From Eledone cirrhosa (Eukaryota), in NCBI GenBank assembly GCA_964016885.1, contig OZ024741.1, positions 342,240,001 to 342,304,000 on the forward strand: a stretch of DNA of 64,000 nucleotides. The letters are read 5' to 3'. Positions 17,558 to 64,000 of the stretch are shown here, one piece after another. Position 1 is the stretch's first letter, and the number at the start of each line of letters is the position of its first letter. The position numbers were made by a program, and so were the translations under genes. The notes under the pieces are model-generated. The model made no database searches and had not been told where the DNA came from. It saw only the letters and a program-made list of their open reading frames with translations.

Positions 17558-17692
17558 GGCGGTAGTTTTAAAAGTTGGGAAAAAGCACGCGTGGTTTTTT
17601 TTTTTTTCTGTTTTGTTTTCACGAGAAGGATGAAGAGAGCCGAGTGCGGTGTATGAGGGAAATCTATATGTTATACAGAGTAAACCGTAAGT
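17558..17692 (+). promoter_or_regulatory. Candidate promoter and non-coding first exon of the l(3)mbt-like gene (CDE/CHR-like site, donor GTAAGT at 17687)
   Basis: GGCGG-TAGT-TTTAAA at 17558-17572, CACGCGTG, CpG-rich context, consensus donor; no transcript evidence. Confidence 0.3.
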
Positions 17693-19165
17693 CGCGCATC
17701 AAAGCATTAAAAACAATTTAGTATAGATGTTCATCGTATTTGTATTAACAAAAATATATTGAAATAACAAAGGTATCATTTTCATCATCGTATTATCTAT
17801 GATTTTAAGGTATTGAGTCTACGACAGCTCACGCTTTATCATTCCTCTACCTCCGTTTTGTTTAGAGAAATAGAGGCGATCCATAACACAAAAATAATTG
17901 AAATCAGTTAAACACACTAGAGTGCTGTTTAAGGAAATCGTTTCATTTGAGAGCAGATGCTTATCTCAATAGCAGTAAAGAAAACCTGTTTAGGAAAATA
18001 CGCTTTTCTTGAATTTATTTTTAAATCCCGATTTTGTATTTAGCTGGGACGGTTCCTTTATCTATATTTCTAATGGTTTATAGAATGTGTGTGTGAGTGC
18101 GCTATTATAGTATTCTCTTATTTATTTAATGTCGCAATTTGTAAACGATAGCACCGTTGGTTATTCCCAATAGACTAATCATTGGTTTACTGCATTTGTG
18201 ACAGCGAGAATGGCAAGGAAGTTTTGTTCGTAAAATACTGTTTGTTATTTTGATTTTGTTTTCGGTTTTTTCGCCGATGTTTTCAGTGATCGTAATAGAA
18301 GACGCTTGCCCAAGTCGTCTGGGATCGAATTGGAAACTATTTGGTTGCGAAGTGAACTCGTTCACCACAGCCACCCCCGCATAAAATTTTCCCAGACATA
18401 GACTCTTTAAACCTCCACCAATTACATACTTTGTATGTAATTGAATCATATATTGTGAATCTAAATTATATACATCACAATACGTGCATACTTGTGTTAC
18501 ATTATACGCATGTAATGTGTGTATTTACGTAGAAAGATAATCTGTGCGTGGTGATTTCATTTTGATATAGAGAAATCAATAAAAATGTCCAGTTACAAAT
18601 AGGTTGGAGCTATTGTCAGGAGCGGAGTCATAGTTTAAGGAGACACAAACAGTATCATCGACTATAGATGCATGGATAATTCAAACCAGCAGATGTCGAA
18701 ACTTTTTTTTTTGCTTGTTTTGTTAACTTTATTTTGGCTTTCGTTTTTGATTCCTGTGATTCCTTCTTTCTGTCTTTTTCCACTCCACTCTTCTCAACAA
18801 GGCCACAGACCTCCCTCCCTCAATCAGTTTTGGAATCGCTGCATTAGGGTTCGAGTTGAGGGAAATTTGGCTGCTATTTCTTGCAGGTCGAGAGATCACT
18901 TTGAGGCTCACTTGTATGTATGAGATGGGGTAGATAAAATAAAGTACCAGTAATGCACTGGGTAATTGCTGGCCTTGTGCCTAAAGTAGAAACAATTATT
19001 AATATTTTGAATAATATTAATAACTCCAGAAAACTTTTTGTTGAGTGTTTTTAATCTATTATAAAACCATATTCATTGAATAATCAATGAACCTTGTTTA
19101 ACATTTGGTTATATATATATTAGAATATAAATATTAATAAAATAGATGTTCTTTTGATCAATTAA

Positions 19166-19218
19166 ATTTTATTATACATATTTCGGATGTACAACAGTAC
19201 GTCCTCATCAGACAAAAT
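19166..19218 (-). ncRNA. Type I minimal hammerhead ribozyme motif
   Basis: Minus strand reads ATTTTGT-CTGATGA-GGACGTAC-TGTT-GTACATCC-GAA-ATATGTAT-A-ATAAAAT: intact core, 7-bp stem I, 7/8-bp stem II, near-palindromic stem III. Confidence 0.7.
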
Positions 19219-19410
19219 ACAATGATACATGACATACCCTGAGATGTTAAATGGTTAAGATTTAATCAAGGTAGTATATATATATATATATATAGGAAAA
19301 TAGTCAGAACCCCGACGGCAGAGCTCAAGCCGATTACCCACTCTACTACCCGAAGTATCGAGTACTCTGGTCTGTTATGGTCCACCTGGTTCCTTACCAC
19401 ACTTCCTTCG

Positions 19411-19449
<39 letters not shown>

Positions 19450-19560
19450 GGACCTACCCTTATTGAGTGCTTTGCTACTCATTCCTTATTGTAGGTCGAC
19501 TTTGCTTGGCCACAGCCAAAGCTTCGATTTTACTAAGCTTCCACTTGTGTATATATATAT

Positions 19561-19947
19561 GAAGAATAAAAAAGAGTTGGGTGGTGCATAGAAAAAGAAA
19601 TAAAAAATATATACTTAGCTGAAAACCTTTCGATATTTTACACGGTTTGAAAATTTATATATATATATATTAATTCAAAATATTAACAAAATAGATATTC
19701 TTGTGATCAAGTATATTTTATAATACATATTTCAATGGTACTGAGTTAACTTCAACAGTACGTCCTCATCAGATAAAATTATGTATTATAAAATATACTT
19801 GATCACAAGAATATCTATTTTGTTAATATTTTGAATTAATATATATATATAAATTTTCAAACCGTGTAAAATATCGAAAGGTTTTCAGCTCAGTATATAT
19901 TTTTTATTTCTTTTTCTATGCACCACCCAACTCTTTTTTCTTCTTCT
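19561..19947. repeat. ~170-bp near-perfect inverted repeat
   Basis: 19561-19729 is the reverse complement of 19780-19947. Confidence 0.92.
19715..19779 (-). ncRNA. Second hammerhead ribozyme motif (weaker base of stem II)
   Basis: ATTTTAT-CTGATGA-GGACGTACTG...CAGTACCATT-GAA-ATATGTAT-T-ATAAAAT. Confidence 0.55.
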
Positions 19948-21476
19948 TTTACTTATTACGCAGTTTAGAGAGAGAAAAAAATTGGCATACTTTTTTTGCA
20001 TAAATAAAAAAAAAATTCTTTAAAAATCAAATGTATTTATGTATATTAGTTAATATAAATGACGTAATTATAGAAAATTATGTACTTTATTTAATAAATG
20101 AAGTATAGCTAATGCATTACTTAGCTATTTAGAATTTCAGTTTTTATTCTCCACATTTTAAATGAAATATTTCCGTGGCGCACCTAGCTACATTCCACGG
20201 CAAAGAATTTTGGAACACTTCTTTCCCATGCTACATTTCTCGTCTCTATTACTGAATAGTTTCAATTGTCTCCTATCTACTGTAGCAAATAAATTACACT
20301 TTTAAAGGTCAGTGTTTTATTTTCTTGCGCAAATTCCTTGAGACACGACGGCTGGCGCATGCACACTGATCTCCCCGCTCTCTCTCATATATATATACAC
20401 ACAAACACGCACACATCCTCACTCACTTACACGTTGACACTCGCACGTGTGCGCGTTCACTCATACGTACCAGATTGTAATTAACATGTGTATGTATATA
20501 TATATATACATATATATATAGTAAGGTTGCTTGGATGCGTCCATAGGCGGTATGCCGGTTGAGCATTCTATGCTCCTTCGGAGCATATATATATCCGTGT
20601 GATATTGACGGACATGTGAATGAGTACTCAAAACGGCAGTAGCGTTTAAATGTCCTTTATTATGTTTAAATGATGAGTCTTGTTACTCCGGAGAAGATTT
20701 TCTGCCGATCCTGTGAGTACACGGATAAAACTTTAGAGTAACAAGATTCACTACAAGAAAAATATATTTATATTACATGTGTGTGTGTGTACATATTTAA
20801 AATTTTTACTTTTTGATTTTCATTCAACGGATGTCGGGGTCAACTTAATTTATTCATGATAATTCTTAGAATATTTACGCATCTCTAAACTGATTATTCA
20901 CGTCGCTAAAACATTGCACATTAATTTGTAAAAATTAAGAAACAAAAAAAAATCTCTATTTCTTTGTTTACAAATATTGTGAGTTTCGATTGTTCAGCCA
21001 ATCAACAACACCGTATGATGACCCAATAAAGCAATTGACTAATCACAATTGTTGTATTATTATGTGGTTGGTGATCAATGTTTTGGCGTCTGCAATACGA
21101 TGTCATTCATCACTGGTGATTTTCAAATGCTCATAGAATTTTTCTATAATGATTTCTTTATCGATTTCATTATTTTTCTATAAGGCATGTTCCTTCAACC
21201 CTCGCCCCACAAAAATAAAAAACGAAACAAAGCAATTATTTTATTACATTTCATTGACAAGTGGAAATTATTTTTTATTTTATTTCGCAGCAGTGAGACC
21301 CATATTTCGTGATGTGAGGGACAACATAATATAGACTGGTTGGGTAGGCGCACACACACGATCGAAAATTTGAATATCTTTGAATATCAACTACTCAGTC
21401 ATTACAATGTGCAGTTAATTGGGATGTATATTAACTAATGACACAATAACTATACATTACGGTAATGTTGACTTTT

Positions 21477-21511
<35 letters not shown>

Positions 21512-22004
21512 CGAGGAAGTTTCGTTTACATGTATAAGATATTTATGTATCGACCTGTTACGCGCGTTTCGCTGAGGATTGGCTCAAGGTCACCCATAGT
21601 AGTTATGGATCCGACTCTACTATCGATCTGCTTTTTAGACTGGTGATGTGACAAAAAAAAAATATAGCTTTGTTGTGGTCTGTGATAAGCACAGTGGTAT
21701 TTTGATTAGTTTGAAACTTTAGCCCCCTTTTCAACTCTGTGAGTGTGTCATGTACGAGGTGACAAAAAGGGTTGGCGTCAATTAAGGTATCCAGCTGTAA
21801 AACTTGGGCTTCTTGCTAATCGAGTGACCACGTCGAGATTCACTTGTATATATCTAAAAGGTGTAGTGGTAAATTTTCAAACATGAAATATTTAAAAGTT
21901 CTAAGCTTAATATATCTTTATTAGCTCTATTTCAGTCATTGTCTTAAAACATATAATCCCATCCATACCCATGTCAGAATGGAAAAGAAGACTAAAAAAA
22001 AAAG

Positions 22005-44900: not shown

Positions 44901-47900
44901 ACTTATGATTCTATGATATAAATCTTTCATTTTACATAGTCTATATTTAAATTAAAACTTTCCATCATAATTTTATGTAAGAACCTTTTGCTATTATTAA
45001 ACTTATCGTTGGAACATAATTAAGTTATTTTATTAAATCCTTCTAATATTTTGATTATTTTCAAAATTCATTGAAACACTTATAGAGCATAGAGTTCAAT
45101 TGACAAGATTCCAGACCTCATTTGTTTACCAAGTGAGGGTGAAACTCGTTTTCACCAAAGAATCAATGTTTTCATTGGTCTTTCCATTGCTGATACTATC
45201 TACCAGTCACAACTTCTGGCAGAATTGAAGCATTTAGGTTGTGTATTTTATTAGAAATATGATAATAAAAAGGCTAAAGTGTTCCTATTCAAATGAACTT
45301 CTCCTAACATTTGTTATGTTACATATACTACCTTAATAATGAAATAATTCATAATTTTAGCAAATCCTTCCAAATTTTTCTTTCAGTATATTTCATTATA
45401 AATATGGGGATTAAAAGGGTGAAAAGGATCCTATTTAAATTAAAACCTCCTAACATAATTTGATATGATGGTCTTGTAACTCCTGATGGAGTTGCTAGGG
45501 TGTCATAGTGGCATATAGCATTTCTTGGGCATGTTAAGCCTGGCAGAGCCAGGTCTGAACACAGCCAATTTCTTTCAGAGAAGGATAGAAAATTAGAAAG
45601 AGATACAGAGGAAGAATTGACCCCAATATTAGTCTGGTACTTTTTTTAATTGATCTTGAAAGGATGAAAGGCAAAGTTGACCTTGGTAGGATTTGAATTC
45701 AGAGAGTAGAGAGTCGAAACGAATATCACAAAGTACTCTGACATTCTAATAACTGCCAATTCGTCGTTTATAATTTGATATAAAAACCTTTAAAGTTATA
45801 TTACAAACACTATCTTGATAATGAAATAATGAATAATTTTAGTAAATCCTTCTAAATTCTTCATTAATTAATTCCAATACAGAATATCTCATGAGTAATA
45901 GGTTACCATATCTATGGAGGTCAGATATCAATTCAAGATTCAACTTGATTGTAATAATTCAGATGTCCAGTTATTCACCTCGCTGTGAACACCATTCCAA
46001 AATGGGTTGGGATGTAATTGCATCAGAGATAAATTCACCTCATGGTGGACAGTGTGTGTGACTAAACCAATGGAGGTACCTTCTGAATGGAAGCTATTGT
46101 AAGGAATTGATCCGGAATTTAAGGATGAATTACGAAGTTTGACACAAAATCTAAAGTCATCGTCTGGTTTAGCATCTTCTTTATTTGTCACAAGCATTGG
46201 ATGTAAAATCTAAAGCATGACCATATAGGATTTGGTGAATGCAACTCCAGTATATCGTTAAAATATGAGAATGAGCTAGACATGGTTACTTGACCTGATT
46301 TGTCTCATAATGTGACAACCTGTCTAACGCATTGCAGGCATGGAAAATAGACATTAAACACTGATGAAGATGACACAATGCTGGAGTAGGTGAAAATGAA
46401 TATATTGAAGTTTAACTCTTATCCTGTGCTCTATGAAACAGCATTAGCAAGACATTCTTGAAAAGTACAATACAGTATTATGATTGTATCACACAGAAAC
46501 TGAAAGCGCTTACTCTAATACTGTAAATTTTTATAATGACCTCGCTCTCAGTAAAGACATTATAAACTTTTCAATTGATGGACTTTGTTTTTTTAATACA
46601 TTTTCTACTAAATCATTATAGGATGTTAAGAGATAAACTGCTAAGTTTAAGTTCACATCATTAGAAAGAGAAATGTGTGGGTAAGAGAACACAAAATCTT
46701 TGGCTAAACTACTGAACATTTTCTGTTCCTTTTATCTTGCCAGAAAGTTGATACAAATCCATTTTGGGTGAGGGACAATACAGTTGTATAGTTTTGAACT
46801 AATTATCAATTGATATATATGTTCTGTGGTGGTGTTACAGTGCTGAGAGCTTATCCTCTCACCTGAGAATAACTGGTACTTTTTTATGATAAATATATGA
46901 ATATGATCTTTATCATTTCATGTATGTTTTATTTTTATTATTTCAGCTGGAAAAAAATCTAAAGTCTTTACCTGGGCTCAGTATTTGGATCAAGAGAATG
47001 CCGTTGGGGCACCAACCAAACTTTTTAAAGAGGTAACCTTTTGAAGTGATTTAACAACATTCATATTTATGGAATCTTTCTACCACTGATAACAACTGTT
47101 TTAGGGCCACCCTCCTAACTAAAGTAAGGGTTAGCTTTGCACAGGGTGGTACATGACAAGTTTCTCCGTTTTCCATTATCATCAGCATTCCCCTCCACCA
47201 ACTCACTGGCTTCATTTCTTCCTTCATCATTTTTAGCTTCTCTAGTGTTAGTGCTGCAAAAAATGCACCCAGTACCCTCTGTAAGGTGGTTGGTGATAGG
47301 AAAGGCACCTCACTGTAGAAACCATGCCAAAAGGGTTGAGAGGATCCTTCAGTTGTACAAGGACATGACAGCCTTCCTAGTGTTGGTGGTCTACATGATA
47401 AATACATTTAGTACATGCTGTAAAGTGGTTGGTGATAGGGAGGACATCCAGATTTAGAAAGCTTGCCAAACAAAGGGTTAGGAGGACCCTTCAGTTTTGT
47501 CAAGAACATGACATCTTCATTAGTGCTGGTGCCACAATAAAATGTAGTCGGTAGAGTGTAAAACTATATGTAAACAAGATGCAGATGCTCTGGCCTGTCT
47601 AAGAATTCAGTAGACTTGCTTCAGTACTGATTTGGTCTGTGAAGACGACTAGCAAGGAATGTGAATGTTGAATGATGATGATTATGATGATTGCATTCTT
47701 TTTTTCTGTTTATTTAGAATATATTCAGTGTTTTCTTTTTTTCCATCCTTCCTAGCCCTTTCCTGTATTAAAGAATGGTTTCAAGATTGGTATGAAGCTG
47801 GAAGGCATCGATCCAAAGCATCAGTCTCTTTACTGCGTCCTTAGTGTTGCTGAGGTGAGAGGGTTCCGTATTCGGTTACACTTCGATGGTTATTCAGAAT

Positions 47901-50259: not shown

Positions 50260-53200
50260 CAAGACATACGTACAGGTACACATATAGACATACAGGTACA
50301 CATACAGACGTATGGGTACACATACAGACATATAGGCACACATACAGATGTACAGGCACTAACTGACAGACGTACAGGCACAGACAGATACATACACATG
50401 TGCATGCATGCACGCACACAGACAGAAGTAGACAGACATACATACAAAGACAGACAGACAGACATACATATAGACAACAGACATAGGCAGACAGACAGAC
50501 ACAAGCAGACAGACACACAGACACAAGCAGACAGACACACAGACACAAGCAGACAGACACACAGGCATAAGCAGACACACACACAGGCATAAGCAGACAC
50601 ACACACAGGCATAAGCAGACACACACACAGACATAAGCAGACAGACACACAGACATAAGCAGTCACACACAGAGACATAAGCAGTCACAAACACAGAGAT
50701 AAGCAGACAGACACGCAGACATAAGCAGTCACACACAGACATAAGCAGTCACACACAGACATAAGCAGACAGGCACAGACGTAAGCAGACAGACACATAC
50801 ACATAAGCAGACAGACACACTGACATAAGCAGACAGACACACTGACATAAGCAGACAGACACACTGACATAAGCAGACAGACACACACTGACATAAGCAG
50901 TCACACACTGACATAAGCAGTCACACACACAGACATAAGCAGACAGACACACAGACATAAGCAGACAGGCACAGACATAAGCAGACAGACACACAGACAT
51001 AAGCAGACAGGCACACAGACATAAGCAGACAGGCACACAGACATAAGCAGACAGACACACAGACATAAGCAGTCACACACAGACATAAGCAGTCTCACAC
51101 AGACATAAGCAGTCTCACACAGACATAAGCAGACAGGCACACAGACATAAGCAGACACACAGACATAAGCAGACAGACACACAGACATAAGCAGACAGAC
51201 ACACAGACATAAGCAGACAGACAAACAGACATAAGCAGACAGGCACACAGACATAAGCAGACAGACATAAGCAGACAGACACACAGACATAAGCAGACAG
51301 ACACACAGACATAAGCAGACAGACACACAGACATAAGCAGACACACACAGACATAAGCAGACAGGCACACAAACATAAGCAAACAGACACACAGATATAA
51401 GCAGACAGACACACAGACATAAGCAGACACACACAGATATAAGCAGACAGACATAAGCAGACAGACATAAGCAGACAGACACACAGACATAAGCAGACAG
51501 GCACACAAACATAAGCAAACAGACACACAGACATAAGCAGACAGACACACAGACATAAGCAGACAGACACACAGACATAAGCAGACAGACACACAGACAT
51601 AAGCAGACAGGCACACAGACATAAGCAGACAGACACACAGACATAAGCAGACAGACACACAGACATAAGCAGACAGACACACAGACATAAGCAGACAGAC
51701 ACACAGACATAAGCAGACCGACACTCTGACATAAGCAGACAGACACACAGCCATAAGCAGACAGGCACACAGAGAGGCACGCAGACATAAGCAGACAGAC
51801 ACACAGACATAAGCAGACAGACACACAGACATAAGCAGACAGACACACAGACATAAGCAGACAGGCACACAGACATAAGCAGACAGGCACACAGACATAA
51901 GCAGACAGGCACACAGACATAAGCAGACAGGCACACAGACATAAGCAGACAGGAACATAGACATAAGCAGACAGACACACAGACATAAGCAGACAGACAT
52001 ACAGACATAAGCAGACAGGCACACAGACATAAGCAGACAGACACACAGACATAAGCAGACAGGCACACAGACATAAGCAGACAGGCACACAGACATAAGC
52101 AGTCACACACACAGACATAAGCAGACACACACACACAGACATAAGCAGACAGGCACACAGACATAAGCAGACAGGCACATAGACATAAGCAGACAGACAC
52201 ACAGACATAAGCAGACAGGCACACAGACATAAGCAGACAGACACACAGACATAAGCAGACAGACACACAGACATAAGCAGACAGACACACAGACATAAGC
52301 AGTCACACACACAGACATAAGCAGACACACACACAGACATAAGCAGACAGGCACACAGACATAAGCAGACAGGCACATAGACATAAGCAGACAGACACAC
52401 AGACATAAGCAGACAGGCACACAGACATAAGCAGACAGGCACACAGACATAAGCAGACAGGCACACAGACATAAGCAGACAGGAACATAGACATAAGCAG
52501 ACAGACACACAGACATAAGCAGACAGACACACAGCCATAAGCAGACAGGCACACAGACATAAGCAGACAGGCACACAGACATAAGCAGACAGGCACACAG
52601 ACATAAGCAGACAGGCACACAGACATAAGCAGACAGGCACACAGACATAAGCAGTCACACACATAGACATAAGCAGACAGACACACAGACATAAGCAGAC
52701 AGACACACAGACATAAGCAGACAGGCACACAGACATAAGCAGACAGGCACACAGACATAAGCAGACAGACACACAGACATAAGCAGACAGACACACAGAC
52801 ATAAGCAGACAGACACACAGACATAAGCAGACAGATACACAGACATAAGCAGACAGACATACAGACATAAGCAGACAGGCACACAGCCATAAGCAGACAG
52901 GCACACAGACATAAGCAGACAGACACACAGACATAAGCAGACAGACACACAGACATAAGCAGACAGACACACAGACATAAGCAGACAGGCACACAGAGAG
53001 GCACGCAGACATAAGCAGACAGACATAAGCAGACAGGCACACAGCCATAAGCAGACAGACACACAGACATAAGCAGACAGACACACAGACATAAGCAGAC
53101 AGACACACAGACATAAGCAGACAGGCACATAGACATAAGCAGACAGACACACAGACATAAGCAGACAGACATACAGACATAAGCAGACACACACACAGAC

Positions 53201-56200
53201 ATAAGCAGAGAGGCACACAGACATAAGCAGACAGGCACACAGACATAAGCAGTCATACACACAGACATAAGCAGACACACACACAGACATAAGCAGACAG
53301 GCACATAGACATAAGCAGACTGACACACAGACATAAGCAGACAGGCACACAGACATAAGCAGACAGACACACAGACATAAGCAGACAGGCACATAGACAT
53401 AAGCAGACAGACACACAGACATAAGCAGACAGACACACAGACATAAGCAGACAGGCACACAGACATAAGCAGACACGCACATAGACATAAGCAGACAGGC
53501 ACATAGACATAAGCAGACAGGCACACAGAGACATAAGCAGACTGGCACACAGACATAAGCAGACAGGCACACAGACATAAGCAGACAGACACACAGACAT
53601 AAGCAGACAGACACACAGACATAAGCAGACAGACACACAGACATAAGCAGACACACACAGACATAAGCAGACAGACACACAGACAGGCACACAGACATAA
53701 GCAGACAGACACACAGACATAAGCAGACAGACACACACATAAGCAGACACACACAGACATAAGCAGACACACACAGACATAAGCAAACACACACAGACAT
53801 AAGCAGACAGACATAAGCAGACACACACACAGACATAAGCAGACACACACACAGACATAAGCAGACACACACACAGACATAAGCAGACACACACACAGAC
53901 ATAAGCAGACACACACACACAGACATACACACAGACATAAGCAGACACACACACAGACATAAGCAGACACACACACAGACATAAGCAGACAGACACACAG
54001 ACATAAGCAGACAGACACACAGACATAAGCAGACAGACACACAGACATAAGCAGACAGACACACAGACATAAGCAGACAGACACATAGACATAAGCAGAC
54101 AGACACATAGACATAAGCAGACAGACACATAGACATAAGCAGACAGACACACAGACATAAGCAGACAGACACACAGACATAAGCAGACAGACACACAGAC
54201 ATAAGCAGACAGACACATAGACATAAGCAGACAGACACACAGACATAAGCAGACAGACACACAGACATAAGCAGACAGACACACAGACATAAGCAGACAG
54301 ACACATAGACATAAGCAGACAGACACATAGACATAAGCAGACAGACACATAGACATAAGCAGACAGGCACACAGCCATAAGCAGACAGGCACACAGACAG
54401 GCACACAGACATAAGCAGACAGACACACAGACATAAGCAGACAGGCACACAGACATAAGCAGACAGACACACAGACATAAGCAGACAGACACACAGACAT
54501 AAGCAGACAGACACACAGACATTAGCAGACAGACACACAGACATAAGCAGACAGACACACAGACATAAGCAGACAGACACACAGACATAAGCAGACAGGC
54601 ACACAGACATAAGCAGACAGGCACACAGACATAAGCAGACAGACACACAGACATAAGCAGACAGACACACAGACATAAGCAGACAGGCACATAGACATAA
54701 GCAGACAGGCACATAGACATAAGCAGACAGACACACAGACATAAGCAGACAGACACACAGACATAAGCAGACAGACACACAGACATAAGCAGACAGACAT
54801 ACAGACATAAGCAGACAGGCACATAGACATAAGCAGACAGGCACATAGACATAAGCAGACAGACACACATACATAAGCAGACAGACACACAGACATAAGC
54901 AGACAGACACACAGACATAAGCAGACAGACACACAGACATAAGCAGACAGGCACACAGACATAAGCAGTCACACACACAGACATAAGCAGACACACACAC
55001 AGACATAAGCAGACAGGCACACAGACATAAGCAGACAGGCACATAGACATAAGCAGACAGACACACAGACATAAGCAGACAGACACATAGACATAAGCAG
55101 ACAGGCACACAGACATACAGACATAAGCAGACAGACACACAGACATAAGCAGACAGGCACATAGACATAAGCAGACAGACACACAGACATACAGACATAA
55201 GCAGACAGACACACAGACATAAGCAGACAGGCACATAGACATAAGCAGACAGACACACAGACATAAGCAGACAGACACACAGACATAAGCAGACACACAC
55301 ACAGACATAATCAGACAGGCACACAGACATAAGCAGACAGGCACACAGACATAAGCAGTCACACACACAGACATAAGCAGACACACACACAGACATAAGC
55401 AGACAGGCACACAGACATAAGCAGACACACACACAGACATAAGCAGACAGGCACACAGACATAAGCAGACAGGCACACAGACATAAGCAGACAGGCACAC
55501 AGACATAAGCAGACAGGCACACAGACATAAGCAGACAGGCACATAGACATAAGCAGACAGGCACATAGACATAAGCAGACAGGCACATAGACATAAGCAG
55601 ACAGACACACAGACATAAGCAGACAGGCACACAGACATAAGCAGACAGGCACATAGACATAAGCAGACAGACACACAGACATAAGCAGACAGACACACAG
55701 ACATAAGCAGACACACACACAGACATAAGCAGACACACACACAGACATAAGCAGACACACACACAGACATAAGCAGACAGGCACACAGACATAAGCAGAC
55801 AGGCACACAGATATAAGCAGACAGGCACACAGACATAAGCAGTCACACACACAGACATAAGCAGACACACACAGACATAAGCAGACAGGCACACAGACAT
55901 AAGAAGACAGACACACAGACATAAGTAGACAGGCACACAGACATAAGCAGACACACACACAGACATGAGCAGACAGACACACAGACATAAGCAGACAGGC
56001 ACACAGCCATAAGCAGACAGGAACATAGACATAAGCAGACAGACACACAGACATAAGCAGACAGACACACAGACATAAGCAGACAGACATAAGCAGACAG
56101 ACACACAGACATAAGCAGACAGACACACAAACATAAGCAGACAGACACACAGACATAAGCAGACACACACACAGACATAAGTAGACAGACACACACAGAC

Positions 56201-59200
56201 ATACACACAGACATAAGCAGACACACACACAGACATAAGCAGACACACACACAGACATAAGCAGACACACACACAGACATAAGCAGACAGACACACAGAC
56301 ATAAGCAGACAGACACACAGACATAAGCAGACACACACACAGACATAAGCAGACACACACACAGACATAAGCAGACAGACACATAGACATAAGCAGACAG
56401 TCACATAGACATAAGCAGACAGGCACACAGACATAAGCAGACAGACACACAGACATAAGCAGACAGACACACAGACATAAGCAGACAGACACACAGACAT
56501 AAGCAGACAGACACACAGACATAAGCAGACAGACATAAGCAGACAGACACACAGACATAAGCAGACAGACACACAAACATAAGCAGACAGACACACAGAC
56601 ATAAGCAGACAGACACACAGACATAAGCAGACAGACACACAGACATAAGCAGACAGACACACAGACATAAGCAGACAGACACACAGACATAAGCAGACAG
56701 ACACACAGACATAAGCAGACAGACACACAGACATAAGCAGTCACACACACAGACATAAGCAGTCACACACACAGACATAAGCAGTCACACACACAGACAT
56801 AAGCAGACAGACACACAGACATAAGCAGACAGGCACACAGACATAAGCAGACGGGCACACAGACATAAGCAGACAGACACACAGACATAAGCAGACAGGC
56901 ACACAGGCATAAGCAGACAGGCACACAGACATAAGCAGACACACACACAGACATAAGCAGACAGACACATAGACATAAGCAGACAGACACATAGACATAA
57001 GCAGACAGGCACACAGCCATAAGCAGACAGGAACATAGACATAAGCAGACAGACACACAGACATAAGCAGACAGGCACACAGACATAAGCAGACAGGCAC
57101 ACAGACATAAGCAGACAGGCACACAGACATAAGCAGACAGGCACACAGATATAAGCAGACAGGCACACAGACATAAGCAGACAGACACACAGACATAAGC
57201 AGACAGACACATAGACATAAGCAGACAGACACACAGACATAAGCAGACAGGCACACAGCCATAAGCAGACAGGCACACAGACAGGCACACAGACATTAGC
57301 AGACAGACACACAGACATAAGCAGACACACACACAGACATAAGCAGACACACACACAGACATAAGCAGACAGGCACACAGACATAAGCAGACAGACACAC
57401 AGACATAAGCAGACAGACACATAGACATAAGCAGACAGACACACAGACATAAGCAGACAGGCACACAGCCATAAGCAGACAGGCACACAGACATTAGCAG
57501 ACAGACACACAGACATAAGCAGACACACACACAGACATAAGCAGACACACACACAGACATAAGCAGACACACACACAGACATAAGCAGACAGGCACACAG
57601 ACATAAGCAGACAGACACACAGACATAAGCAGACAGACACACAGACATAAGCAGACAGGCACATAGACATAAGCAGACAGGCACATAGACATAAGCAGAC
57701 AGACACACAGACATAAGCAGACAGACATACAGACATAAGCAGACAGACACACAGACATAAGCAGACAGGGACATAGACATAAGCAGACAGACACACAGAC
57801 ATAAGCAGACAGACACACAGACATAAGCAGACACACACACAGACATAATCAGACAGGCACACAGACATAAGCAGACAGGCACACAGACATAAGCAGTCAG
57901 ACACACAGGCATAAGCAGACACACACACAGACATAAGCAGACAGGCACACAGACATAAGCAGACAGGCACATAGACATAAGCAGACAGGCACATAGACAT
58001 AAGCAGACAGACACACAGACATAAGAAGACAGGCACACAGACATAAGCATACAGGCACATAGACATAAGCAGACAGACACACAGACATAAGCAGACACAC
58101 ACACAGACATAAGCAGACACACACACAGACATAAGCAGACACACACACAGACATAAGCAGACAGGCACACAGACATAAGCAGACAGGCACACAGATATAA
58201 GCAGACAGGCACACAGACATAAGCAGTCACACACACAGACATAAGCAGACACACACAGACATAAGCAGACACACACAGACATAAGCAGACAGACACACAG
58301 ACATAAGAAGACAGACACACAGACATAAGCAGACAGGCACACAGACATGAGCAGACAGACACACAGACATAAGCAGACAGGCACACAGCCATAAGCAGAC
58401 AGACACACAGACATAAGCAGACAGACACACAGACATAAGAAGACAGACACACAGATATAAGAAGACAGGCACACAGACATAAGCAGACAGGCACACAGAC
58501 ATAAGCAGACAGGCACACAGACATAAGCAGACACACACTCAGACATGAGCAGACAGACACACAGACATAAGCAGACAGGAACATAGACATAAGCAGACAG
58601 ACACACAGACATAAGCAGACAGGCACACAGACATAAGCAGACAGGCACACAGACATAAGCAGACAGGCACACAGCCATAAGCAGACAGGCACATAGACAT
58701 AAGCAGACAGACACACAGACATAAGCAGACAGACACACGGACATAAGCAGACAGACACACGGACATAAGCAGACAGACACATAGACATAAGCAGACAGGC
58801 ACATAGACATAAGCAGACAGGCACATAGACATAAGCAGACAGACACACAGACATAAGCAGACAGACACACAGACATAAGCAGACAGGCACATAGACATAA
58901 GCAGACAGACACACAGACATAAGCAGACAGACACACAGACATAAGCAGACAGACACACAGACATAATCAGACAGGCACACAGACATAAGCAGACAGGCAC
59001 ACAGACATAAGCAGACAGGCACACAGACATAAGCAGACAGGCACACAGACATAAGCAGTCACACACACAGACATAAGCAGACACACACACAGACATAAGC
59101 AGACACGCACACAGACATAAGCAGACAGACACACAGATATAAGCAGACAGACACACAGACATAAGCAGACAGACACACAGACATAAGCAGACAGACACAC

Positions 59201-62200
59201 AGACATAAGCAGACAGGCACATAGACATAAGCAGACAGACACACAGACATAAGCAGACAGACACACAGACATAAGCAGACACACACACAGACATAAGCAG
59301 ACAGGCACACAGATATAAGCAGACAGGCACACAGACATAAGCAGTCACACACACAGACATAAGCAGACACACACAGACATAAGCAGACAGGCACACAGAC
59401 ATAAGCAGACAGGCACACAGACATAAGCAGACAGGCACACAGACATAAGCAGACAGGCACACAGACATAAGCAGACACACACACAGACATAAGCAGACAG
59501 ACATACAGACATAAGCAGACAGGCACACAGACATAAGAAGACAGACACACAGACATAAGCAGACAGGCACACAGACATAAGCAGACACACACACAGACAT
59601 GAGCAGACAGACACACAGATATAAGCAGACAGGCACACAGCCATAAGCAGACAGGAACATAGACATAAGCAGACAGACACACAGACATAAGCAGACAGGC
59701 ACACAGACATAAGCAGACAGGCACACAGCCATAAGCAGACAGGCACATAGACATAAGCAGACAGACACACAGACATAAGCAGACAGACACACGGACATAA
59801 GCAGACAGACACATAGACATAAGCAGACAGGCACATAGACATAAGCAGACAGGCACATAGACATAAGCAGACAGACACACAGACATAAGCAGACAGACAC
59901 ACAGACATAAGCAGACACACACACAGACATAAGCAGACAGGCACACAGACATAAGCAGACACACACACAGATATAAGCAGACAGGCACACAGACATAAGC
60001 AGACAGGCACACAGACATAAGCAGACAGACACACAGACATAAGCAGACAGACACACAGACATAAGCAGACAAACACACAGACATAAGCAGACAGACACAC
60101 AGACATAAGCAGACAGACACACAGACATAAGCAGACACACACACAGACATAAGCAGACAGACACACACAGACATAAGCAGACAGACACACAGACATAAGC
60201 AGACAGACACACAGACATAAGCAGACAGACACATAGACATAAGCAGACAGTCACATAGACATAAGCAGACAGACACATAGACATAAGCAGACAGGCACAC
60301 AGACATAAGCAGACAGACACACAGACATAAGCAGACAGACACACAGACATAAGCAGACAGACACACAGACATAAGCAGACAGACACACAGACATAAGCAG
60401 ACAGACATAAGCAGACAGACACACAGACATAAGCAGACAGACACACAGACATAAGCAGACAGACATAAGCAGACAGACACACAGACATAAGCAGACAGAC
60501 ACACAGACATAAGCAGACAGGCACACAGACATAAGCAGACAGGCACACAGACATAAGCAGACAGGCACACAGACATAAGCAGACAGACACATAGACATAA
60601 GCAGACAGGCACATAGACATAAGCAGACAGGCACACAGACATAAGCAGACAGACACACAGACATAAGCAGACAGGCACACAGACATAAGCAGATAGACAC
60701 ACAGACATAAGCAGACAGGCACATAGACATAAGCAGACAGACACACAGACATAAGCAGACAGACACACAGACATAAGCAGACACACACACAGACATAAGT
60801 AGACAGGCACACAGACATAAGCAGACAGGCACACAGATATAAGCAGACAGGCACACAGACATAAGCAGTCACACACACAGACATAAGCAGATACACACAG
60901 ACATAAGCAGACACACACAGACATAAGCAGACAGGCACACAGACATAAGCAGACAGGCACACAGACATAAGCAGACAGGCACACAGACATAAGCAGACAG
61001 ACACACAGACATAAGAAGACAGACACACAGACATAAGCAGACAGGCACACAGTCATAAGCAGACACACACACAGACATGAGCAGACAGACACACAGACAT
61101 AAGCAGACACACACACAGACATAAGCAGACAGACACACAGACATAAGCAGACAGGCACACAGACATAAGCAGACAGACACATAGACATAAGCAGACAGGC
61201 ACACAGCCATAAGCAGACAGGCACACAGACATAAGCAGACAGACACACAGACATAAGCAGACAGACACACAGACATAAGCAGACAGACACACAGACATAA
61301 GCAGACAGGCACACAGACATAAGCAGACAGGCACGCAGACATAAGCAGACAGACACACAGACATAAGCAGACAGCCACACAGACATAAGCAGACAGACAC
61401 ACAGACATAAGCAGACAGACACACAGACATAAGCAGACAGGCACACAGACATAAGCAGACAGGCACACAGACATAAGCAGACAGACACACAGACATAAGC
61501 AGACAGACACACAGACATAAGCAGACAGGCACACAGACATAAGCAGACAGGCACACAGACATAAGCAGACAGACACACAGACATAAGCAGACAGACACAC
61601 AGACATAAGCAGACAGGCACACAGACATAAGCAGACAGACACACAGACATAAGCAGACAGACACACAGCCATAAGCAGACAGGCACACAGACATAAGCAG
61701 ACAGACACACAGACATAAGCAGACAGACACACAGAGATAAGCAGACAGACACACAGACATAAGCAGACAGACACACAGACATAAGCAGACAGACACATAG
61801 ACATAAGCAGACAGACACATAGACATAAGCAGACAGACACATAGACATAAGCAGACAGACACACAGACATAAGCAGACAGGCACACAGACATAAGCAGAC
61901 AGACACACAGACATAAGCAGACAGGCACACAGAGAGGCACGCAGACATAAGCAGACAGACATACAGACATAAGCAGACAGACACACAGACATAAGCAGAC
62001 AGGCACATAGACATAAGCAGACAGGCACACAGACATAAGCAGACAGACACACAGACATAAGCAGACAGACACACAGACATAAGCAGACAGGCACACAGAC
62101 ATAAGCAGACAGACATACAGACATAAGCAGACAGGCACACAGCCATAAGCAGACAGGCACATAGACATAAGCAGACAGACATACAGACATAAGCAGACAG

Positions 62201-64000
62201 ACACACAGACATAAGCAGACAGGCACACAGACATAAGCAGACAGGCACACAGACATAAGCAGTCCCACACACAGACATAAGCAGACAGACACACAGACAT
62301 AAGCAGACAGGCACACAGACATAAGCAGACAGGCACATAGACATAAGCAGACAGACACACAGACATAAGCAGACAGACATACAGACATAAGCAGACAGGC
62401 ACACAGCCATAAGCAGACAGGCACATAGACATAAGCAGACAGACATACAGACATAAGCAGACAGACACACAGACATAAGCAGACAGGCACACAGACATAA
62501 GCAGACAGGCACACAGACATAAGCAGTCACACACACAGACATAAGCAGACAGACACACAGACATAAGCAGACAGGCACACAGACATAAGCAGACAGGCAC
62601 ATAGACATAAGCAGACAGACACACAGACATAAGCAGACAGACATACAGACATAAGCAGACAGGCACACAGCCATAAGCAGACAGGCACATAGACATAAGC
62701 AGACAGACATACAGACATAAGCAGACAGACACACAGACATAAGCAGACAGGCACACAGACATAAGCAGACAGGCACACAGACATAAGCAGTCACACACAC
62801 AGACATAAGCAGACACACACACAGACATAAGCAGACACGCACACAGACATAAGCAGACAGACACACAGACATAAGCAGACAGACACACAGACATAAGCAG
62901 ACAGGCACACAGACATAAGCAGACACACACACAGACATGAGCAGACAGACACACAGATATAAGCAGACAGGCACACAGCCATAAGCAGACAGGAACATAG
63001 ACATAAGCAGACAGACACACAGACATAAGCAGACAGGCACACAGACATAAGCAGACAGGCACACAGCCATAAGCAGACAGGCACATAGACATAAGCAGAC
63101 AGACACACAGACATAAGCAGACAGACACACGGACATAAGCAGACAGACACATAGACATAAGCAGACAGGCACATAGACATAAGCAGACAGGCACATAGAC
63201 ATAAGCAGACAGACACACAGACATAAGCAGACAGACACACAGACATAAGCAGACACACACAGAGACATAAGCAGACAGGCACACAGACATAAGCAGACAC
63301 ACACACAGATATAAGCAGACAGGCACACAGACATAAGCAGACAGGCACACAGACATAAGCAGACAGACACACAGACATAAGCAGACAGACACACAGACAT
63401 AAGCAGACAAACACACAGACATAAGCAGACAGACACACAGACATAAGCAGACAGACACACAGACATAAGCAGACACACACACAGACATAAGCAGACAGAC
63501 ACACACAGACATAAGCAGACAGACACACAGACATAAGCAGACAGACACACAGACATAAGCAGACAGACACACAGACATAAGCAGACAGTCACATAGACAT
63601 AAGCAGACAGACACATAGACATAAGCAGACAGGCACACAGACATAAGCAGACAGACACACAGACATAAGCAGACAGACACACAGACATAAGCAGACAGAC
63701 ACACAGACATAAGCAGACAGACATAAGCAGACAGACACACAGACATAAGCAGACAGACACACAGACATAAGCAGACAGACACACAGACATAAGCAGACAG
63801 ACATAAGCAGACAGACACACAGACATAAGCAGACAGACACACAGACATAAGCAGACAGGCACACAGACATAAGCAGACAGGCACACAGACATAAGCAGAC
63901 AGGCACACAGACATAAGCAGACAGACACATAGACATAAGCAGACAGGCACATAGACATAAGCAGACAGGCACACAGACATAAGCAGACAGACACACAGAC
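50260..64000. repeat. 22-bp satellite (ACAGACATAAGCAGACAGRCAC), roughly 600 copies, intronic, runs off the window
   Basis: Direct reading; 22-aa periodicity of the minus-strand pseudo-ORFs. Confidence 0.98.

What the first reader, a model, noticed from the sequence alone, without database searches (positions are those of the whole stretch)
19110..19947. Two tandem hammerhead ribozyme motifs plus an inverted arm: Penelope/retrozyme-like relic
Seen: two homologous ~110-bp segments (~19110-19218 and ~19655-19779) each carry a minus-strand CTGATGA...GAAA core, stem I ATTTT(G/A)T/ATAAAAT and near-palindromic stem III ATATGTAT. Predicted cleavage sites (~19173, ~19722) are ~549 nt apart. The second motif occupies the loop of a 170-bp near-perfect palindrome. 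Established: Penelope-like elements carry minimal type I hammerheads that act as dimers in tandem or inverted pseudo-LTRs, and retrozymes release circular RNAs from tandem hammerheads. Inference: a non-autonomous ribozyme-bearing element near the l(3)mbt promoter region that could self-cleave antisense transcripts, with the palindrome competing against the ribozyme fold.
Basis: partly seen in the sequence, partly recalled or inferred. Interest (0 to 1): 0.7.

Follow-up and report, generated by a model that had tools for sequence, protein, structure and literature searches.

The report
Two stacked Penelope retroelement ribozyme ends
The two hammerhead-shaped motifs are in the sequence and match the ends of two different subfamilies of a common Penelope-like jumping gene, so they are likely ordinary leftovers of separate insertions into one TA-repeat hotspot, not a unit that would make a 550-base circular RNA.

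Summary
Both type I hammerhead motifs and the ~175-bp palindrome are real. They are not a tandem retrozyme. Motif 1 is the 3' end of subfamily A (98.6% identical to 27 dispersed copies; 1,290 exact 46-nt cores in the genome). Motif 2 is the 3' end of subfamily B (96.5% to 25 copies; 426 exact 36-nt cores). The two are only 77% alike. Full-length copies of both (4.0 and 4.5 kb) read hammerhead, tail, RT plus GIY-YIG-type ORF, long 3' UTR, hammerhead, and the ORF carries the published Hydra-clade motifs. The 549-nt spacing is filled by two other repeats, (TA)n tracts and single-copy host DNA. Motif 2 is decayed (AUU site, broken stem II base) and predicted to be buried in the hairpin. One oddity: the palindrome also duplicates ~92 bp of single-copy host DNA, which none of 53 plus 38 other element ends showed. 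The site lies ~7 kb upstream of the first L3MBTL coding exon found; the promoter was not mapped. Cleavage is untested. This scan noted the same kind of element before, in this genome and others. Verdict: new member of a known kind, low interest.

The parts
18927..19000 (+). 3' piece of a very abundant unrelated repeat (X), left edge of the pile
   Evidence: 56 BLAST hits among the loci held, the window's own locus copies included; many loci
18996..19110 (+). 3' end plus ~110-nt tail of an older related subfamily, facing element A across a shared (TA)n
   Evidence: 71-84% identical to tails of A and B copies
19110..19275 (-). 5'-truncated 3' end (pLTR) of Penelope-like subfamily A, ending in (TA)n
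   Evidence: 97-99% to dispersed copies with the same 3' end and varied 5' ends; linked to ORF in L077, L108, L116
19166..19218 (-). Hammerhead motif 1, core identical to the family type; predicted AUA site after 19173
   Evidence: 1,290 exact copies of the 46-nt core
19290..19411 (.). Repeat E between (TA)n tracts: short inverted end plus tail of another family; holds only a stem III/GUC/stem I half on the minus strand
19447..19560 (+). Repeat D: 5'-truncated 3' end of another (TA)n-tailed family, unclassified
   Evidence: 97-100% to dispersed copies
19561..19652 (.). Single-copy host DNA, left outer arm of the palindrome
   Evidence: the only other place found in the genome is 19855-19946
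19655..19779 (-). 5'-truncated 3' end (pLTR) of Penelope-like subfamily B
   Evidence: 96.5% mean identity to 25 B copies; full-length B in L133
19715..19779 (-). Hammerhead motif 2, decayed: N17=U and stem II base CCATT, seen in 0 of 67 other B motifs
19780..19854 (+). Inverted copy of the last 75 nt of element B, without the catalytic core; carries the same private N17 change
19855..19946 (.). Single-copy host DNA, right outer arm of the palindrome, running on into unique sequence
26969..27191 (+). First coding exon found of the neighbouring L3MBTL gene (ATG 26993; splice acceptor upstream, so an earlier non-coding exon is likely)
   Evidence: weak tblastn matches (E 0.45-1.7) to N-termini of three homologues and in-phase splice sites; MBT exons at 47792 and beyond

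Best explanation
The two motifs match the hammerhead-bearing 3' ends of two subfamilies (A, B) of a protein-coding Penelope-like retrotransposon, likely of the Hydra clade, and were likely left by separate, early-aborted insertions into the same (TA)n hotspot. Shown: family membership, full-length anatomy (hammerhead, ~110-nt tail/5' UTR, RT plus GIY-YIG-type ORF, long 3' UTR, hammerhead; 4,047 nt for A, 4,540 nt for B), fixed 3' ends at (TA)n with variable 5' ends, and a spacer of unrelated pieces. Inferred: the element's endonuclease cuts (TA)n, reverse transcription starts at one of two internal AUAU points (short end or tail end) and often stops after 100-200 nt; in the parent element the hammerhead would cut precursor RNA as a dimer through its self-complementary 8-nt stem III, perhaps with protein help. 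For B at this site the new cDNA likely folded back on a 4-nt microhomology and was copied through the (TA)n into ~92 bp of host DNA, giving the palindrome. At this locus the motifs are likely inert: copy 1 has no partner, copy 2 is mutated and buried.
For: Identity of motif 1 region to A 98.6% (n=27) and to B 78.7% (n=25); motif 2 to B 96.5% and to A 76.5%; A/B split 100/100. 1,290 and 426 exact cores, reversed-pattern controls 0. Full-length direct units L116 and L133, 78% identical over 2.7 kb. ORF motifs RWR, DKT, YRDD, CxCx5C, VY..YIG without inner CxxC, CxxC-E..N-CxH fit the Hydra definition (PMC8557442 section 11); best protein hit 40% identical, from Argonauta. All 53 copies examined end in a (TA)n run, 44 at the short end and 9 at the tail end; 13 of 53 have an inverted partner within 700 nt. 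Stem III self-complementary in 46 of 51 distinct 8-nt stem III motifs; 5 of 10 distinct words against 1.7 expected, P=0.007. Spacer pieces D, E are separate high-copy repeats. Both palindrome arms share a change absent from 66 family copies.
Against: No Rfam hammerhead match and no Pfam match for the ORF pieces (0 of 4; 0 for L096), so RT and GIY-YIG are read from motifs and the published description. No tree with published Hydra proteins was built. No intact ORF was seen in the copies fetched. The hammerhead fold is not the predicted minimum even for copy 1 (6.7 kcal/mol above it; stem I pair probability 0.01). The stem III counts come from related families, so they are not independent. The order of events and which host arm is the original cannot be read without an empty allele.
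Confidence: 0.92

Rival explanations
1. One non-autonomous retrozyme-like unit: two tandem hammerheads cut a minus-strand transcript and release a ~549-nt RNA that circularises.
For: Same strand, 549 nt apart, identical stem III and compatible stem I arms, so a mixed dimer is possible on paper. Animal retrozymes are proposed to derive from PLE ends (10.64898/2026.07.22.740005).
Against: Different subfamilies. The spacer holds single-copy DNA and two unrelated repeats; no other locus among the 40 candidates scored matched more than one piece of it. Among the first 100 listed A cores, 12 of 12 pairs within 1 kb are head-to-head; among the first 100 B cores, 6 head-to-head, 1 tail-to-tail, 0 same-strand (counted by eye). 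Copy 2 has AUU and a broken stem II base and costs 29 kcal/mol to fold out of the hairpin.
Confidence: 0.03
2. The pile has been co-opted to regulate L3MBTL: copy 1 cuts antisense RNA, or the 175-bp hairpin in a 5' transcript serves as double-stranded RNA for editing or small-RNA production.
For: Lies ~7 kb upstream of the first coding exon found, in CpG-undepleted DNA; copy 1 core equals the family type; the hairpin is very stable (-242 kcal/mol).
Against: Over a thousand identical cores are spread through the genome, so one near a gene is expected; copy 1 is as diverged from its family as other copies; copy 2 has decayed.
Confidence: 0.04
3. For the palindrome alone: it arose after insertion by a DNA-level event (replication template switch or break repair), or the duplicated host arm is an assembly artefact.
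For: Host-flank duplication is absent from the other copies tested (0 of 53; 0 non-simple hits of 38 ends in 22 inverted loci), so it is not a routine product of this element; a shared private allele fits any copying of one arm from the other.
Against: The pivot is exactly the 5' truncation point of the element, and the core lies in the loop in the orientation a cDNA fold-back would give. Arms differ at 2 positions, and contigs of three runs of one sample lie on both outer arms at single-copy-like depth (12-19 and 10-19), though no contig spans the structure.
Confidence: 0.4

Closest known systems
Hydra clade of C-terminal EN+ Penelope-like elements (Craig et al. 2021, PMC8557442), including Hydra-1_Obim of Octopus bimaculoides
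   Same: RWK-like motif, DKT, CxCx5C linker, no CCHH, CxxC and CxH around E and N, (TA)n targets, canonical type I hammerhead near the 3' end with a short self-complementary stem III, 5' truncation, inverted 5' copies.
   Different: Units of 4.0-4.5 kb with a 3' UTR of about 1.5-2 kb (published: generally under 3 kb; Hydra-1_Obim 2,507 bp); tail ~110 nt (30-40 bp quoted for PLEs); hammerhead sequence unlike that listed for Hydra-1_Obim, so another family; over a thousand near-identical copies.
PLE hammerheads (Cervera and de la Pena 2014, PMC4209133)
   Same: Type I motif in pLTRs, long stem II, palindromic stem III suited to dimers, mostly single or opposite-strand pairs from truncated elements.
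   Different: [quoted passage not shown]
PAc, Poseidon element of Anolis (Frangieh et al. 2024, PMC11167929)
   Same: Two internal start points of reverse transcription define a tail; AT-rich target.
   Different: Here both ends lie at ATAT words that match the (TA)n target, whereas PAc starts at sites not homologous to the cut DNA; the hammerhead lies ~250 nt upstream of the ATG and not over it.
Non-LTR retrozymes (10.64898/2026.07.22.740005)
   Same: Type I hammerhead related to pLTRs.
   Different: Defined there as tandem repeats with a complete hammerhead in at least two consecutive units; this locus has no repeated unit.

Membership tests
EN+ Penelope-like element | Single ORF with RT followed by GIY-YIG endonuclease | tested here: met
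   Continuous tblastn cover of homologue P0004 over about 2.2 kb in L108-L113, L133; YRDD and VY..YIG motifs. All copies seen are broken; Pfam silent.
EN+ Penelope-like element | Hammerhead-bearing pLTRs in direct and inverted arrangement, with optional tail | tested here: met
   Direct pairs 4,047 and 4,540 nt apart; 13 of 53 copies with inverted partner, 9 of 53 with tail.
EN+ Penelope-like element | Fixed 3' end, variable 5' truncation | tested here: met
Hydra clade | RWK and DKT motifs, CxCx5C linker, no CCHH, CxxC/CxH around E and N | tested here: met
   RLRWR (RWR, K in some homologues), SDKTNN, CNCRNKTDC, one C between VY and YIG, CALCTME..LINKK..CLH.
Hydra clade | Insertion into (TA)n | tested here: met
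   53 of 53 copies end in a TA run.
Hydra clade | RT phylogeny with published Hydra families | not tested
   No published Hydra protein was held as a usable sequence.
Hydra clade | Generally under 3 kb | tested here: not met
   4.0 and 4.5 kb; given as a tendency in PMC8557442, not as a strict criterion.
Type I hammerhead ribozyme | CUGANGA and GAAA core, stems I-III, NUH site | tested here: met
   Copy 1 complete; copy 2 has core and AUU site but a weak stem II base. No Rfam match.
Type I hammerhead ribozyme | Self-cleavage | not testable with these tools
   Needs an assay.
Non-LTR retrozyme | Tandem repeat of one short unit with a hammerhead in each | tested here: not met
   No tandem array at the site; copies of different subfamilies, patchwork spacer.
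Non-LTR retrozyme | Circular RNA | not testable with these tools
   Needs RNA data.

The most novel reading that the evidence does not exclude
The palindrome is a fossil of Penelope cDNA self-priming that ran back through its own insertion junction and copied ~92 bp of single-copy host DNA, so that these elements can now and then write inverted duplications of host sequence, here a 175-bp hairpin upstream of L3MBTL.
Probability: 0.4. Interest if true: 0.3.

Novelty: new member of a known kind. Interest (0 to 1): 0.1.

Why it matters
Little for this locus: it is one of many such stubs. The two subfamilies add longer, high-copy members to the Hydra clade and offer a clean test set for dimer-type hammerheads. 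If the host-DNA fold-back came from the insertion itself, it would favour self-priming as one source of the head-to-head PLE structure and show a small route to host palindromes.

Tried and rejected
Rfam scan: no hammerhead family. Pfam on the element's ORF pieces and five homologues: nothing over cut-off. A discrete 166-bp non-autonomous element was my first reading; rejected when many copies ran on for over 1.6 kb into an ORF. Search for homologues of the large low-complexity exon 33591-35099: none. Sequencing runs: no RNA holder listed, which says nothing on expression; contig depth is no copy number and no contig spans the palindrome. The transcription start of L3MBTL was not mapped. Host-flank duplication as a routine feature: rejected (positive control on the window copy passed). 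A scrambled hammerhead in spacer repeats D or E, a lead from earlier notes: not seen by eye; E carries only a GAAA-stem III-GUC-stem I half in most copies. Literature searches listed no paper on host-flank inverted duplication by PLEs or on these families; four searches of an incomplete library do not show absence.

Full report
Observation. A descriptor for type I hammerheads found exactly two hits in the window, both on the minus strand, with predicted sites after 19173 (AUA) and 19722 (AUU), 549 nt apart. In 11,000-50,000 there were 2 hits with stem I of 7 bp or more and 0 in each of 100 shuffles. The palindrome has arms of about 175 bp with 2 substitutions and one TA indel. Rfam listed no hammerhead among 16 matches at E up to 10.

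Two subfamilies. The genome is 3.0 Gb; the best hit of the element's protein is from Argonauta, which points to an octopod-like cephalopod (inference). Motif 1 with flanks retrieved dispersed copies at 97-99%, motif 2 a second set. On 54 rows, window copy 1 is 98.6% like 27 A copies and 78.7% like 25 B copies; copy 2 is 96.5% like B and 76.5% like A; the two window copies are 76.7% alike and the tree splits them 100/100, though its bootstrap had not settled (the rows were the query-matching copy of each non-redundant locus, and loci where the pattern did not match were left out). Exact cores number 1,290 for A (46 nt) and 426 for B (36 nt), controls 0.

What the families are. Copies share a 3' end at (TA)n and differ at the 5' end; five run on for over 1.6 kb. 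Longer stretches showed an ORF on the hammerhead strand. L116 (A) and L133 (B) hold whole units: hammerhead, ~110-nt tail and 5' UTR, ORF of about 2.2 kb, long 3' UTR, hammerhead, with the two cores 4,047 and 4,540 nt apart; A and B are 78% identical over 2.7 kb. Every ORF seen is broken by stops or frameshifts. Its motifs (RLRWR, SDKTNN, YRDD, CNCRNKTDC, VY..YIG with no inner CxxC, CxxC-E..N-CxH) match the description of the Hydra clade in PMC8557442 (section 11 and passages), whose supplement lists an octopus member with a different hammerhead (part 2 of 59 read). Pfam found nothing, and I built no tree with published proteins, so the clade rests on motifs.

Why the pair is not a retrozyme. 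The spacer is (TA)n, repeat E (19290-19411), (TA)n, repeat D (19447-19560) and 92 bp of single-copy DNA. Left of copy 1 lies the tail of an older subfamily on the opposite strand. At least five insertions are thus stacked at TA tracts (inference). Close pairs elsewhere are head-to-head: 12 of 12 within 1 kb among the first 100 listed A cores; 6 of 7 for B, the other tail-to-tail (by eye). Some complex loci do hold partial same-strand repeats (L059, L108, L124). The retrozyme definition in 10.64898/2026.07.22.740005 (part 1 of 5 read) asks for tandem units, which are absent.

The ribozyme. Across the loci held, 46 of 51 distinct motifs with an 8-nt stem III are self-complementary there (ATATGTAT, ATATATAT, ATGCGCAT, ATGTGCAT, ATGTGTAT), 5 of 10 distinct words against 1.7 in shuffles (P=0.007; related families, so not independent), and stem II changes in length and sequence while mostly staying paired. 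This fits a dimer-type hammerhead kept by selection in the parent elements, as argued in PMC4209133 (parts 1-2 of 4 read), where such motifs cut poorly in vitro; the PAc hammerhead needed protein and was not needed for insertion (PMC11167929, parts 1-2 of 4). Here copy 1 has the family core but its hammerhead fold is 6.7 kcal/mol above the predicted minimum. Copy 2 has N17=U and stem II base CCATT, seen in 0 of 67 other B motifs, and is 12 kcal/mol above the minimum alone and 29 with the arm. Its stem III lies in the hairpin arm, so a mixed dimer with copy 1 is predicted to be blocked.

The palindrome. The inner 75 bp are the usual inverted PLE end (13 of 53 copies have one; described in PMC8557442 and PMC3846280, passages). 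The outer 92 bp are host DNA found only at 19561-19652 and 19855-19946. Both arms carry the private N17 change (0 of 66 family copies), so one was copied from the other. No such flank duplication appeared in 53 copies (window copy 1 included) or in 38 testable ends of 22 inverted loci (two hits were plain TA repeats; 6 ends had no flank to test); the test found the window case. One B locus, L034, has an inverted duplication of unique flank that does not enclose the element. The pivot is the element's truncation point with a 4-nt AAAT/ATTT microhomology, and the orientation fits a cDNA fold-back primed from the left; but the left arm ends exactly at a TA tract and the right arm runs on into unique DNA, which also fits a later DNA-level event. 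Contigs of three runs of one sample lie on both outer arms at low depth but none spans the structure, so an assembly artefact is unlikely but not excluded.

Gene context. MBT exons lie on the + strand at 47792 and beyond the window; homologues are L3MBTL proteins. The first coding exon found is 26969-27191, from weak matches and in-phase splice sites. CpG observed/expected is 0.55-1.4 from 11 to 22.5 kb and mostly below 0.45 after that, which suggests that the methylated gene body begins near 22.5 kb (inference from recalled invertebrate gene-body methylation). The pile is therefore 5' of the coding region, in the promoter zone or a 5' intron; undecided.

Earlier notes of this scan (none by sequence) reach the same kind of reading for other loci; my reading was fixed before I saw them. 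PMC13282606 (passages) reports Penelope-like families in an octopus genome without mention of ribozymes. Unread parts of the PMC8557442 supplement may hold closer families.

Verdict. Observation confirmed; interpretation partly supported; new member of a known kind; interest 0.1.

Noticed in passing
window 4360-8907 (+): RTE-type LINE ORF of about 1,040 aa open through endonuclease, RT and a PHD-like finger, between long (TA/TG)n arrays; fragments recur near 35.5-41.4 kb.
   Followed up: partly
window 50415-64000: 13.6-kb array of a 22-nt unit inside the L3MBTL gene, between MBT exons.
   Followed up: no
window 19290-19411; L090, L122: Repeat family E has the inverted end plus tail anatomy and a GAAA-stem III-GUC-stem I half; two longer copies show an upstream TGAGAAG in place of CTGANGA and a long stem II. 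A third, possibly variant, hammerhead family.
   Followed up: partly
loci L002-L139: Many more hammerhead families (65 distinct motif rows in 482 kb of partly overlapping loci), several with stem II of 35-55 nt.
   Followed up: partly
L116, L133, L108: Both 3' ends used by A and B lie at ATAT words about 110 nt apart in the element's own sequence, matching the (TA)n target.
   Followed up: partly
L034 1714-1894 / 2395-2575: Inverted duplication of about 180 bp of unique DNA just downstream of a B insertion.
   Followed up: no
window 21466-21520: A (TA)16 tract flanked by words resembling both ends of repeat E.
   Followed up: no
window 17600-17693: CpG-rich stretch ending in a GTAAGT donor-like word; a candidate non-coding first exon, by eye only.
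   Followed up: no
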